A stretch of DNA of 64,000 bases from an uncultured Gemmatimonadales bacterium (GTDB lineage: Bacteria; Gemmatimonadota; Gemmatimonadetes; Gemmatimonadales; GWC2-71-9): the NCBI GenBank assembly GCA_963842945.1, contig CAWJIM010000019.1, positions 96,001 to 160,000 on the forward strand, read 5' to 3'. Shown one piece after another: positions 21,001-24,000 of this stretch. Position 1 is the first letter of the stretch; each line of letters opens with the position of its first letter. The position numbers are program-made.

Positions 21001-24000
21001 ACGTGGCCAACCGTCAGCTCAAGCAGCTCATGCTGGAGCGGCAGGGCACCGGTCTCAATTACCCCGGCCTGGTTCTGACGGCGGACAGCGCCACGTACGA
21101 TGACTCGCTCAAGATCTGGCGATTGCGGCGCGGAGCCAGCCGGATCATAGCGGGGCCCGCGAGACAGGCCACGTTCAACTTCCGCACGATGCGGCTTCGG
21201 GCCCTGCGCCAGGCCCCTACCGACCTGCTGGCGGAGTCCAAGGCGCCGGATGAGATGCGATATGCCGAGCTGGGCCGGTACATCGACGCGCTGAAGCGGT
21301 CGGGAAATGACGCCAACAAGCTGATCGTGGAGCAGGCCCTGAAACTGGCGCTGCCCGCCACCTGCCTGATCATCGCGCTCTTCGGTGCTCCGCTGGCAGT
21401 CACCTCGCCCCGCGCCGGAGCCGCCGTTGGCGTGGCCATCAGCCTCGGCACGACGGTGATTTTCCTCTTGTTTGTCCAGATCACCAAGGCTATTGGCGCC
21501 GGCGGAGTAATCGATCCGACCGTGGCGGCATGGATTCCCAACGTGGTGTTTCTGTTTGCGGGATTGGTGCTGCTGGCGCGAGTGAGGACGTGAGGGCAGC
21601 GGGGCAGCGGGGCAGCGGGGCAAGGCAGCGAAGCAGCGAAGCGGCACGAAGCGGGGCAGGACTCAGCCACTTAATACTCTGCTGCGTAAACTCATGCCCA
21701 TGTCACCGCCACCGACCGATATAGGCCCCAGGTCAGTCGACCAGCGTGATCTCTAGAGCTTCGATCTCGCCCCATTCTTCGGCCTTGAGATAGGTCAAGA
21801 TCTCGAGCCAGCAGCAGGATATAGGACAACTTCGGATATCGAACCGAGCGAGATATCGAGAAAGCGGCGGAATTCAGCGCTTCCTCGCTTTGCCGACTCC
21901 TTCCGGCGATGTTGGCTGCGGTGGAATACGCCGCCCGCCGAGCTTGAGCTATAAGACCATACTCCTCGTGACGAGGCCAGGCTCGAGAGACTTGGTACAC
22001 TTCGATGCGCTCAAACTCGTGGCAGGCCGACCAGGACTTCAGCTTTCATGTCTTCTATTCGGCCCGCTTGCGTCGCCGAATACGACGCCGCTGCATGTAG
22101 CAAGTTCAGAGGCTCTGCAGCCAGCCATCTCACCATTTGCTCGCCGGCAGGATCGGTCGCACAGTTTCACCTGCCCCGCCTCCCCGCTGCCCCGCTGCCC
22201 CGCACGTATATTTGATCATGTCGACCCCCCTCCCCGTCATCGTCGGCACCGGCATTGCCGGCCTCTGGACGGCTTGGCGGCTCGCCTCCGAGGGCGGCTC
22301 CGCCGTTCTCATTACTAAGGAAACTCTGGTTGACAGCGCCAGCGCCTGGGCCCAGGGCGGCATCGCCGTTGCCCTGGGACCGGGGGACAGCCCGGGGCAG
22401 CACGCGGCCGACACCCTGGCCGCCAGCGATGGCCTGGCCGACCCCGAAGCAGTCCGGATTCTCACCAACGAGGGGCCCGACCGGATCTACGAGCTGCTGG
22501 AGCTGGGAGCCAAGTTCGACCGGGGGCCGGACGGCAGGCTCCGATTAGGCCTGGAAGCGGCCCACACTAGACCCAGGATCATCCATGCGGGGGGAGACCG
22601 AACCGGCGCCGCCCTCATCAGCTGTCTGGCACAGGTGATCAGGGATCATCCCGAAATCGAGATCCTGGAGCACACCGAGGTCACCGGCCTGGTCAATCAG
22701 AAGGGCCATATCGTTGGCGTCACGCTGATCCGGCAAGGCGGCCCAGCCGAGATACTGCCGGCATCGGCAGTCATTCTCGCGACCGGTGGAGTGGGCCAGC
22801 TGTATGAGGTCACCACCAATCCCCGGGTGGCGACGGCCGACGGCTGGGCTCTGGCCCACAAAATCGGCGCCCAGCTCCGCGACATCGAATTCCTTCAGTT
22901 TCATCCCACTGCGCTGAAGATCCCCGGTCTCAATCCAGCTCCCCTCATCTCCGAGGCCGTCCGCGGCGCCGGAGCCGTACTGCTGAACAAGGCCGGCCAC
23001 CGGTTTTCACTGGACTTCGACAGTCGCGGCGAGCTCGCTCCCCGGGATATCGTAGCTCGCGCCGTGGCCGCAGCCGACGCCAGCTGGGGGTGCCTGGCTC
23101 GACGCGCGGGAAATTCCAGACTTTCCTACCCAGTTCCCCGGAATCACCGCGATGCTCGCGCGGCACGGTCTCGATCCCAGGACCGACCTCCTGCCGGTGG
23201 CGCCCGCCCTGCACTACGCCATGGGGGGCATCCAGACGGACCTCAAGGGGCGAACCACCAGGCCCGGCCTCTGGGCAGTAGGGGAAGTTGCCCGCACCGG
23301 CGTGCATGGCGCCAACCGCCTGGCTTCCAATTCACTCCTGGAGGGTCTGGTCTTCGCCGACCGGGCCGGCCGATCCGTCGCCGAGAAGTCGAGGAGCAAG
23401 ACGGGAGCGAATCTCTCCGGTGGGGACATCGGGATCGAGGAGACAGGAGCAGACCTGCAGTACGAGGCCACCCGCGAGCAGATGCGTCATCTGATGACGG
23501 CCAATGTCGGGCTGCAGCGGAGCGAGACGTCCCTGCTCCAGGCCGAGCAGGAGCTCGAGCGACTTACCAGCACCACGCCGGTGGAGGCCTGGCGCACGAG
23601 AAACCAGCTGCTCGTGGCAGGACTCATCACCCAGGCAGCGCGCCGCAGACGAGAAAGCCGGGGAGGCCACCGCCGCACCGACTATCCGCCTGACTCGCTC
23701 AAGCGCGAGGCCGTCTGATGGCGGCCTCCACCAATGGCGGCCTTTCGCTCCCGGTCATCGAGTCTCCCCAGGAAACGCCGGAGCAGATCGCTGAGCTGCA
23801 GGCGGAAATCCGCCGGCTGGCCCGGGCCAGAAACGCGGTGGTGCTCGCGCACAATTACCAGCGCCCCGAAATCCAGGATGTGGCCGACTACGTGGGCGAC
23901 TCATTGGGTCTGTCCCGTCAGGCGGCAGCCACCCAGGCCAACGTCATCATCTTCTGCGGTGTCCACTTCATGGCGGAGACCGCGGCCATTCTCTCTCCCC

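What a model noticed while it worked through the whole genome (the two positions that open the first line are those of the whole stretch)
21594..22203. Four-helix-bundle genes sit inside hairpins of tandem heptamers or octamers
Every gene of the four-helix-bundle family first seen in 23S rRNA intervening sequences (Pfam 23S_rRNA_IVP, NCBIfam 'four helix bundle protein') lies in this genome between a G-rich tandem-repeat array on its left and the complementary C-rich array on its right, each gene with its own 7-9-nt unit. There are seven such cassettes, four of them not called by the gene tables (e.g. a 116-codon ORF at C19:117695-118045 between (GGGCAGCG)3.6 and (CTGCCCCG)4.1). The units that flank the seven genes are the units of most of the ~240 gene-less arrays elsewhere in the genome, as if the cassettes were the autonomous and the short hairpins the dependent form of one system. 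The cassette is not a quirk of [...]
Evidence so far: pfam.tsv names 3 genes (g02648, g03098, g03606), all flanked by arrays. An HMM built from these and 20 relatives' ORFs finds 7 ORFs in the six-frame translation (E 7e-54 to 3e-21): C20:95464-95877, C2:102129-102515, C22:396-752, C19:448145-448549, C19:147293-147655, C24:241680-242114, C19:117695-118045. Reading 200 nt on either side shows G-rich repeats on the left and their reverse complement on the right in 7 of 7 (two, C19:147293 and C24:241680, as AGCGTGAGCGGG/CCCGCTCACGCT spaced ~20 nt, not strictly tandem); the gene is on the - strand in 5, the + strand in 2. Of 243 arrays away from the cassettes, 104 have exactly and 151 within one mismatch the unit of a cassette; 200 sets of letter-s [...]
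(Added by a program. Inside this text positions count along the whole contig: contig position 96,001 is position 1 of the stretch shown here. "Call 12" and the like, gene names such as g00115 and contig names such as C1 are that model's own, and its searches are not shown. The text may have been shortened before it was handed on; [...] marks where a part breaks off. The agent that wrote the report below was given it as the finding of a first reader that could run no searches.)

Follow-up and report, generated by a model that had tools for sequence, protein, structure and literature searches.

The report
Gene-linked repeats rewritten in place genome-wide
A small gene of unknown function sits between mirror-image runs of a 7-9-letter DNA word, and when that word differs between related bacteria, dozens of distant copies of the word at the same chromosomal positions differ with it, which points to an undescribed process that writes repeats into the chromosome and could explain the long-puzzling bacterial heptamer repeats.

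Summary
Observation confirmed: all 7 four-helix-bundle (PF05635) genes, plus a decayed eighth, lie between a purine-rich and a complementary pyrimidine-rich tandem array; so do 95 of 102 testable loci in the genus. The window's copy is not a clean ORF (five frameshifts). This scan noted the cassette before on other genomes; I found it in no paper searched.

New here: the gene-less hairpins are not mobilised copies. Their 68 loops are unrelated, and some hold native terminators or gene starts. At orthologous junctions the arms are rewritten in place: genomes whose lptG-nadB cassette has GCGGGTAR arms carry that word genome-wide (14-119 hits, 0-3 in 36 others), while this genome has GCGGGGCA at 16 of 23 of the same junctions. 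Sister genomes differ. Period and core of the word follow the protein tree; arrays fall about 5-fold where the gene is lost; alleles appear to be replaced at fixed sites.

Best reading (0.5): the Avd-like pentamer drives templated repeat writing. No enzyme is identified, no reverse transcriptase was found, and several genomes keep arrays without the gene.

The parts
20478..21593 (+). lptG; its stop codon (21591-21593) abuts the left arm
   Evidence: TIGR04408 hit, below the curated cut-off; sequence
21594..21659 (+). left arm: purine-rich GGGCAGCG units, perfect outside, degenerate (GCAGCGAA) inside
21695..22045 (-). four-helix-bundle (PF05635 / TIGR02436) gene, five frame-breaking indels in this assembly; intact in G002, G008, G017, G024 and others
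22132..22138 (-). AAATGGT-like motif seen by eye inside the upstream arm of many cassettes; possible own promoter element (inference, not counted)
22171..22203 (+). right arm: pyrimidine-rich CTGCCCCG units, complementary to the left arm
22207..22212 (+). TATATT -10-like box of nadB, kept in filled and empty alleles; the right arm ends next to it
22218..23718 (+). nadB (L-aspartate oxidase); the +1 indel near 23082-23084 is absent from an otherwise identical public contig, so probably an assembly error
6562..6700 (.). gene-less GGGGCAGC hairpin around the native terminator of the gene to its right
11611..11768 (.). gene-less 9-mer (GGACGGGAA family) hairpin
44624..44716 (.). gene-less 7-mer (GGAGCTA/GGAGCCA) hairpin; no cassette with this unit in this assembly, but in G011 and G058
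51214..51830 (.). second cassette in the window: intact four-helix-bundle gene (51293-51655, -) between spaced AGCGTGAGCGGG-type arms

Best explanation
The cassette (arm - promoter - four-helix-bundle gene - arm) is a slowly moving, horizontally exchanged genetic element whose product acts in trans on the chromosome. Shown: each protein clade goes with one repeat period and core; the arms at many unlinked junctions carry the current word of the resident cassette and are rewritten in place around native DNA; the gene is under purifying selection at fixed sites. Inferred: the Avd-like, positively charged pentamer binds the repeat core on single-stranded nucleic acid and lets a host polymerase or recombinase copy repeat units from cassette arms (or other arrays) onto 3' ends at short look-alike seeds such as G+C-rich terminator stems; this gives the strict purine-arm-then-pyrimidine-arm polarity, single arms inside reading frames, and a lag of old words after an allele is replaced. 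The arrays in turn are landing and exchange sites for the gene. I lean towards the word being read from a nucleic-acid template, but specification by the protein is not excluded.
For: Unit period changes 8 times and unit family 16 times on a 98-protein tree (87 labelled), against at least 29 and 48 in 200 label shuffles. GCGGGTAR doublets: 14-119 in the 5 genomes with such arms on an lptG-site cassette, 0-3 in the other 36 of 41. 16 of 23 orthologous junctions hold GCGGGGCA-type arms in this genome, none more than one GCGGGTAR-type motif; background about 229 of 7478. Sisters G024 and G008 (100/99 on lptG and pilC trees) differ in word at a site with a recognisably shared loop. Native terminators sit in loops, with different families of arms or none in different kin. 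GCGGG-NNN triplets 93, 68, 52 with the gene, 14 and 12 in two close kin without it. 86 purine-then-pyrimidine pairs, 0 reversed. pN/pS 0.20. 7 of 12 hand-picked same-site pairs from close genomes are saturated at fourfold sites, 6 of them with a changed unit, against 0 of the other 5. Cassette word predicts genome-wide arrays in a Phycisphaerae and a Desulfobacterales genome and in G004. Fold matches XCC0516 (TM 0.90) and Avd (TM about 0.8).
Against: No writing enzyme: no PF00078 match in this 87%-complete genome. Arrays without any detectable family gene in G044, G060, G014, G056, and 36 GGGGCAGC hits in G020 without the cognate clade. G051 and G002 carry genome-wide words that differ from their current cassette arms; G008 has GCGGGTAA at one site; G011 and G050 have only 4 hits each of their cassette's AGTCGTC word. 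G066 lacks the gene yet its remaining arrays are mostly one other word, GCGGGGAA. Loop homology passed the null's 95th percentile in only 4 of 13 pairs, and in 0 of 13 with a cruder first parsing. The nucleotide tree of alleles is a star and AU tests reject no topology, so replacement is inferred from rates alone. Broken genes coexist with many arrays (this window; G004; G063). Kin are not independent.
Confidence: 0.5

Rival explanations
1. The pentamer is a sequence-specific RNA- or DNA-binding regulator and the arms are its selected binding sites (mRNA stability, termination, translation); words follow the protein by ordinary slippage, mutation and selection.
For: Arms start at stop codons (54 of 137 purine-strand blocks near a stop, 25 of 137 on the other strand), end at -10-like boxes and enclose terminators. 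The residue just before the RHE motif is K/R in 4 GCA-type, P in 4 TA-type and A in 2 other alleles. Purifying selection.
Against: Single arms lie inside reading frames and change the protein with the word; the same site carries unrelated families or nothing in close kin; sister genomes lose gene and arrays; selection would have to rewrite both arms at dozens of sites. The residue may just share descent with the arms.
Confidence: 0.2
2. Host recombination alone homogenises the arrays by ectopic gene conversion; the gene is a passenger that survives by riding in hairpins (tolerated like an rRNA intervening sequence) and its arms are simply one more converted site.
For: Arrays persist in genomes without the gene; cassette arms sometimes differ from the genome's main word; an unrelated gene (GxxExxY) uses the same layout.
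Against: Does not explain why period and core follow the protein tree across unrelated sites, why arrays thin out after gene loss, why arms arise at new native sites, or why several families stay apart in one genome.
Confidence: 0.17
3. Gene-less hairpins are all relics of cassettes that lost their gene.
For: About 11 of 41 junctions that hold a cassette in a congener hold a gene-less hairpin here, mostly of the same family (by eye); internally deleted genes with intact arms exist.
Against: Loops with native terminators and gene starts; no loop of 68 resembles a cassette interior beyond 12-13-nt chance hits; relics would decay, not switch word together.
Confidence: 0.07
4. One reading: gene-less hairpins are non-autonomous (MITE- or REPIN-like) elements copied as units by the cassette protein.
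For: Shared units; decay after gene loss as for REPINs (passages of 10.1101/2021.07.10.451892).
Against: Loops unique and in several cases native; arms change in place; no cassette pair in one genome above 73% nucleotide identity; no transposase motif known for this fold (recalled).
Confidence: 0.06

Closest known systems
23S rRNA intervening sequences carrying an S23p/IVP ORF (Coxiella, Leptospira; PMC4990558, passages read)
   Same: Same protein family in the loop of a long inverted repeat; the Coxiella IVS has tandem heptamers (GACAGAT) of varying number upstream of the ORF.
   Different: Here between protein genes, 7-8 paralogues with own words, and tied to over a hundred gene-less arrays; RNase III excision untested.
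RAYT-REPIN systems (10.1101/2021.07.10.451892, passages read)
   Same: A resident gene flanked by its repeats, a cognate dispersed population with variable spacer, decay after gene loss.
   Different: No HUH transposase, arms are tandem 7-9-mers rather than one palindrome, and arms are rewritten around native DNA; the REPIN master sequence is reported unchanged across E. coli, whereas the word here differs between sister species.
Avd of diversity-generating retroelements (PMC6182149, PMC10053308, passages read; 4DWL, 8UB7)
   Same: Same fold (TM about 0.8), positively charged pentamer that serves templated DNA synthesis.
   Different: No reverse transcriptase, template or variable repeat found; Avd model scores 21 bits against a cut-off of 80 in one of three proteins scanned.
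Xanthomonas GGGAATC, Nostoc GGGGA(C/T)T and Beggiatoa TAACTGA heptamer arrays (PMC4692102 passages, section 14 and supplement rows; PMC4679880 abstract and section 10)
   Same: Dispersed intergenic heptamer arrays, many as inverted pairs at conserved positions, origin unexplained; supplement file 2 lists a GGGAATC array overlapping the start of XCC0516, the solved member of this family.
   Different: The passages I read draw no link to the gene; no downstream arm of XCC0516 appeared in the rows I retrieved.
DNA uptake sequence dialects and cyanobacterial HIP1 (recalled, not read); DRT10 tandem-repeat synthesis (PMC12632851, search listing only)
   Same: Genome-wide words kept by a trans-acting factor through molecular drive; templated addition of short repeats.
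   Different: Single motifs rather than paired tandem arms; DRT10 has its own reverse transcriptase and, by the abstract start, makes protein-primed DNA.

Membership tests
PF05635 / TIGR02436 four-helix-bundle protein | HMM score above curated cut-off | tested here: met
   7 of 7 over the Pfam cut-off; 3 of 3 over TIGR02436
PF05635 / TIGR02436 four-helix-bundle protein | XCC0516 fold | tested here: met
   model of the G002 orthologue, pLDDT 96, TM 0.90 to 2GSC
PF05635 / TIGR02436 four-helix-bundle protein | homopentamer | not tested
   assumed from 2GSC as cited in PMC4990558
23S rRNA intervening sequence | located in an rRNA gene | tested here: not met
   all 8 copies lie between protein-coding genes
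23S rRNA intervening sequence | terminal inverted repeat forming a long stem | tested here: met
23S rRNA intervening sequence | excision by RNase III | not testable with these tools
   no raw RNA reads; laid contigs do not cover the cassette
RAYT-REPIN | HUH tyrosine transposase | tested here: not met
   protein is a four-helix bundle; the genome's one PF01797 gene is elsewhere
RAYT-REPIN | population shrinks when the cognate gene is lost | tested here: inconclusive
   yes in G011 and G066; not in G020, G044, G060, G014, G056
RAYT-REPIN | duplication as whole elements | tested here: not met
   unique and partly native loops, arms changed in place
MITE | shared internal sequence with each other or the autonomous element | tested here: not met
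MITE | target-site duplication | not tested
   junctions only read by eye
Diversity-generating retroelement | reverse transcriptase in the genome or locus | tested here: not met
   0 PF00078 matches, genome 87% complete
Diversity-generating retroelement | Avd equivalog score | tested here: not met
   21 bits against 80 at best

The most novel reading that the evidence does not exclude
Stand-alone Avd-like pentamers are the specificity factors of a widespread telomerase-like repeat-writing system: with a host polymerase they copy the word of their own cassette arms onto chromosomal 3' ends at seed sites, which creates and continually edits the heptamer/octamer arrays of many bacterial phyla, including coding DNA, and builds the landing sites through which the gene spreads.
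Probability: 0.3. Interest if true: 0.95.

Novelty: categorically new. Interest (0 to 1): 0.82.

Why it matters
Dispersed 7-9-nt tandem arrays have been catalogued in Xanthomonas, cyanobacteria, Beggiatoaceae and Bacteroidota without a known origin, and the IVP/S23p family has two solved structures and no function. Tying the two together gives each a direct test: a named protein, a predictable cognate word, and natural allele pairs that differ in it. In-place, genome-wide rewriting of repeats driven by one small gene would be a new form of molecular drive, would reach into signal peptides and linkers, and would suggest where Avd came from. If the word is template-read, it would also be a programmable writing activity.

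Tried and rejected
Reverse transcriptase search: none. Polarity of decay within arms: only the first unit beyond the perfect block differs (0.56 outer, 0.65 inner, p 0.009), and that can come from block phase, so no growth direction is claimed. Loop homology: first parsing 0 of 13, second 4 of 13. Allele tree at lptG-nadB unresolved, AU p 0.11-0.24. Public runs: best share 0.16; four laid contig sets do not cover the cassette, so neither expression nor the reality of its frameshifts was tested. Mutation bias as the cause of the word switch: third-position G+C of pilC is 0.79-0.86 in TA-type and 0.84-0.89 in GCA-type genomes, overlapping, and 0.83 against 0.84 for the sisters G024 and G008; not excluded, not sufficient. 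Adenine-specific hypermutation of the gene: fourfold differences are spread over all six base pairs. The GTRA-heptamer pattern was too broad to test dependence (33 of 42 genomes). The scan of named genomes gave only 9 loci, 5 above the inverted-arm threshold, 4 below (three Vibrio, one Saprospiraceae). One row of the alignment (G008x) had wrong coordinates and was ignored. No complex prediction was run.

Full report
OBSERVATION. Between the lptG stop (21591-21593) and the TATATT box before nadB (22207-22212) lie a purine-rich array of GGGCAGCG units, about 510 nt with a four-helix-bundle gene on the minus strand, and the complementary array; the arms pair in the predicted fold. PF05635 finds 7 places in the genome and all 7 have this layout. 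A tblastn with congener proteins adds an eighth, decayed and partly inverted copy on C16. The window's gene has five frame-breaking indels against intact orthologues. The assembly has indel errors (one in nadB is missing from an otherwise identical public contig; roughly one per 2-3 kb against a relative), but five in 350 nt is more than that rate gives; no reads cover the gene, so pseudogene and local polishing failure both remain open. The nearest named record is a Gemmatimonadales MAG (94% identity to the C20 protein).

ARRAYS. The genome has 192 exact arrays of period 7-12 against 4 in a Markov control. Polarity is strict: 31 of 31 purine-rich arrays with a partner have it downstream, 24 of 25 pyrimidine-rich ones upstream, control 8 of 576; with looser matching 86 pairs run purine then pyrimidine and none the other way (families overlap, so some pairs count twice). 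Of 183 arrays away from cassettes, 77 match a cassette unit exactly and 128 within one mismatch, above all 500 shuffles. Many arms are unpaired.

GENERALITY. 34 of 41 genomes of the genus have the family (33 of 40 without the unpublished G057; no other claim rests on G057 or G003). I analysed 119 loci (7 own, 112 from congeners; weaker matches were not fetched). Of 102 with at least 200 nt on both sides, 95 have inverted flanks above the 99th percentile of random pairs; direct orientation 6, mismatched pairs 54 of 510. Outside the genus 4 of 8 named loci pass. The word of the cassette predicts dispersed arrays in its own genome: 40 hits in a Phycisphaerae genome against 0-1 in four others; 24 in a Desulfobacterales genome and 70 in G004, whose one cassette has the same word, 0 in six others. 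In the Xanthomonas repeat catalogue a GGGAATC array overlaps the start of XCC0516 (supplement file 2 of PMC4692102).

WORD FOLLOWS PROTEIN. On a tree of 98 proteins the clades carry GTGA-core 7-mers, GTC-core 7-mers, GCT-core 7-mers, GGCGG/GCGGG 8-mers and 9-mers; period changes 8 times and family 16 times among 87 labelled rows, at least 29 and 48 in 200 shuffles. Part of this is shared descent of gene and arms. GCTRWYR triplets number 16-981 in the 10 genomes with such a cassette (G002's was found afterwards), 0 in 24 of the other 31, and 9-33 in three exceptions.

SITES. 66 of 112 congener cassettes map by both flanks to 41 junctions here: 4 hold the gene, 1 a GxxExxY gene, about 11 a gene-less hairpin (mostly of the same family) and 2 a single arm, the rest no arms (classed by eye). 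The lptG-nadB junction itself is filled, empty (27-37 nt), or holds other hairpins, REP-like palindromes or a GxxExxY element in different kin. No two cassettes in one genome exceed 73% nucleotide identity and pN/pS is 0.20 (nadB 0.15): the gene moves rarely and is selected where it sits. Among 12 same-site pairs from close genomes, which I picked after seeing the table and which share genomes, 5 differ at 0.26-0.43 of fourfold sites and keep the unit; 7 differ at 0.64-0.81 while flanking genes differ at 0.15-0.35, and 6 of these have another unit. I read this as allele replacement at fixed sites. A generally faster clock in a gene without codon bias contributes (fourfold G+C 0.62 against 0.78), and the allele tree is unresolved.

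REWRITING IN PLACE, the main new result. The lptG-site cassette has GCGGGGCA arms in G000, G002, G008, G017, GCGGGACA with GCA in G053, GCGGGGAA in G051, and GCGGGTAR in G024, G048, G049, G064 and one of two copies in G059. GCGGGTAR doublets number 28, 22, 119, 37 and 14 in those five and 0-3 in the other 36; the GCA pattern numbers 12-58 in the six others and 2, 5, 3, 20, 3 in the TA group. G053's private ACA word is common in the first 100 of its 155 listed hits. I fetched 40 TA-type gene-less loci (those listed first for G024, G049, G064); 28 mapped by both flanks to 23 junctions of this genome, 16 of which hold GCA-type arms, none more than one TA-type motif; background about 3% (the background set includes shadow ORFs). 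TA-type hosts are not one clade: G024 is sister to G008 and G049/G064 group with G051/G053 on two single-gene trees, so the switch happened more than once. At two such junctions read across 23 genomes each, arms of this family match the genome's main word in 7 of 9 and 8 of 9 cassette-bearing genomes; other kin carry 9-mer, GGCGGAC, GGCGGTAA or GTRA arms or none at the same place. In one the loop is a terminator, in the other it holds a gene start with one arm in the signal-peptide codons. At window 6562 the terminator in the loop is present in kin without arms, including G044, and its stem resembles the unit core. The 68 loops of this genome resemble neither each other (one identical pair) nor cassette interiors; orthologous loops are detectably alike in 4 of 13 pairs (p 0.004 overall; 0 of 13 with a cruder parsing). 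Where the gene is gone (G011, G066, 87-89% identical to this genome) GCGGG-NNN triplets fall to 14 and 12 from 93, 68 and 52.

AGAINST. G044, G060, G014 and G056 have arrays and no family gene even at E 1; G020 (8 contigs) has 36 GCA hits and a relic arm at lptG-nadB but only a gene of another clade. G051 and G002 carry main words that differ from their present arms. A lag after loss or replacement, or cassettes lost at contig ends, would explain these, but that is an added assumption. One residue, just before the RHE motif, sorts with the word (K/R, P, A), which keeps protein-level specificity alive. No reverse transcriptase was found.

MECHANISM. The fold is that of XCC0516 and Avd, net charge median +5. 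Avd is a positively charged pentamer needed for templated cDNA synthesis (PMC6182149, passages). I commit at 0.5 to a trans-acting repeat-writing drive: pentamer binds the core, a host enzyme copies units from arms onto 3' ends at look-alike seeds; purine-rich strands running 5' to 3' towards the loop are what addition to both sides of a break, or to nicks on either strand, would leave. All of this last step is inference. Rivals: selected regulator sites 0.2, host conversion with a passenger gene 0.17, relics only 0.07, MITE/REPIN-like copying 0.06.

NOT ALONE. The 3 PF13366 (GxxExxY) genes have their own 9-10-mer arms, so an unrelated nuclease family uses the same layout.

LITERATURE. Ten full-text searches of the open library found no paper linking this family to flanking arrays or describing in-place word switching; most subscription papers, among them the XCC0516 structure paper and the original Leptospira and cyanobacterial repeat papers, are not held, and bioRxiv supplements were closed. 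Seen: PMC4692102 (passages, section 14, supplement rows), PMC4679880 (abstract, section 10, term search with no mention of the family), PMC4990558, PMC6182149, PMC10053308, PMC5524665 and 10.1101/2021.07.10.451892 (passages), PMC12632851 (listing only); uptake-sequence dialects and HIP1 are recalled. This scan has noted the gene-in-a-hairpin cassette and its GxxExxY twin on other genomes; a look-up for rewriting at orthologous sites returned nothing.

VERDICT. Real, general, and stranger than proposed: not a family of mobile hairpins but repeats kept in step with a gene across the chromosome. Interest 0.82; categorically new as a pattern, mechanism unproven.

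Noticed in passing
G000 C24:146431-146778, C19:168241-168441, C18:60365-60574; window 25640-25870: All three GxxExxY (PF13366) genes sit between their own inverted 9-10-mer arms; window 25640-25870 looks like a gene-less or decayed member of that family (ATCTGCGTTC units).
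   Followed up: partly
L147 (G000:C2:224930-225400): A small GIY-YIG gene is flanked by inverted GTCATCC-type REP sequences; the same REPs turn up inside 4 of 68 hairpin loops.
   Followed up: no
window 22207-22220 and other arm ends: TAnnnT boxes lie 5-12 nt before start codons next to many pyrimidine arms, suggesting leaderless transcripts; in the GGCGGTAA family the last unit merges with the box (TACCGT).
   Followed up: partly
G000 C16:133590-134170: Decayed eighth cassette with part of the gene inverted and the YGSA segment present on both strands.
   Followed up: partly
L156, L158, L187, L230, L237, L240, L306: Arms inside reading frames (linkers, an insertion loop, a signal peptide) change word with the genome and so change the encoded residues.
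   Followed up: partly
window 14501, 23082, about 25480: Frameshifts in a large outer-membrane-type ORF, nadB and nadC; the nadB one is probably an assembly error.
   Followed up: partly
G000 C11:1548 and C21:195064: The only identical loop pair among 68; may be a duplicated or contaminant contig segment or a recent copy.
   Followed up: no
G009, G047: Very large array populations (981 and 739 GCTRWYR triplets; 965 and 458 GTRA hits), ten times those of other kin.
   Followed up: no
L149 (G002:C69), L148 (G019:C584), L091 and L095 (G059): Second lptG or nadB copies with a different junction state in the same bin; strain mixing or contamination is possible.
   Followed up: no
window 54477-54514: Exact 19-nt tandem duplication just after a terminator-like hairpin.
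   Followed up: no
L145 (G000:C21:326712-327050): One PF01797 (RAYT-like) gene with palindromes downstream.
   Followed up: no
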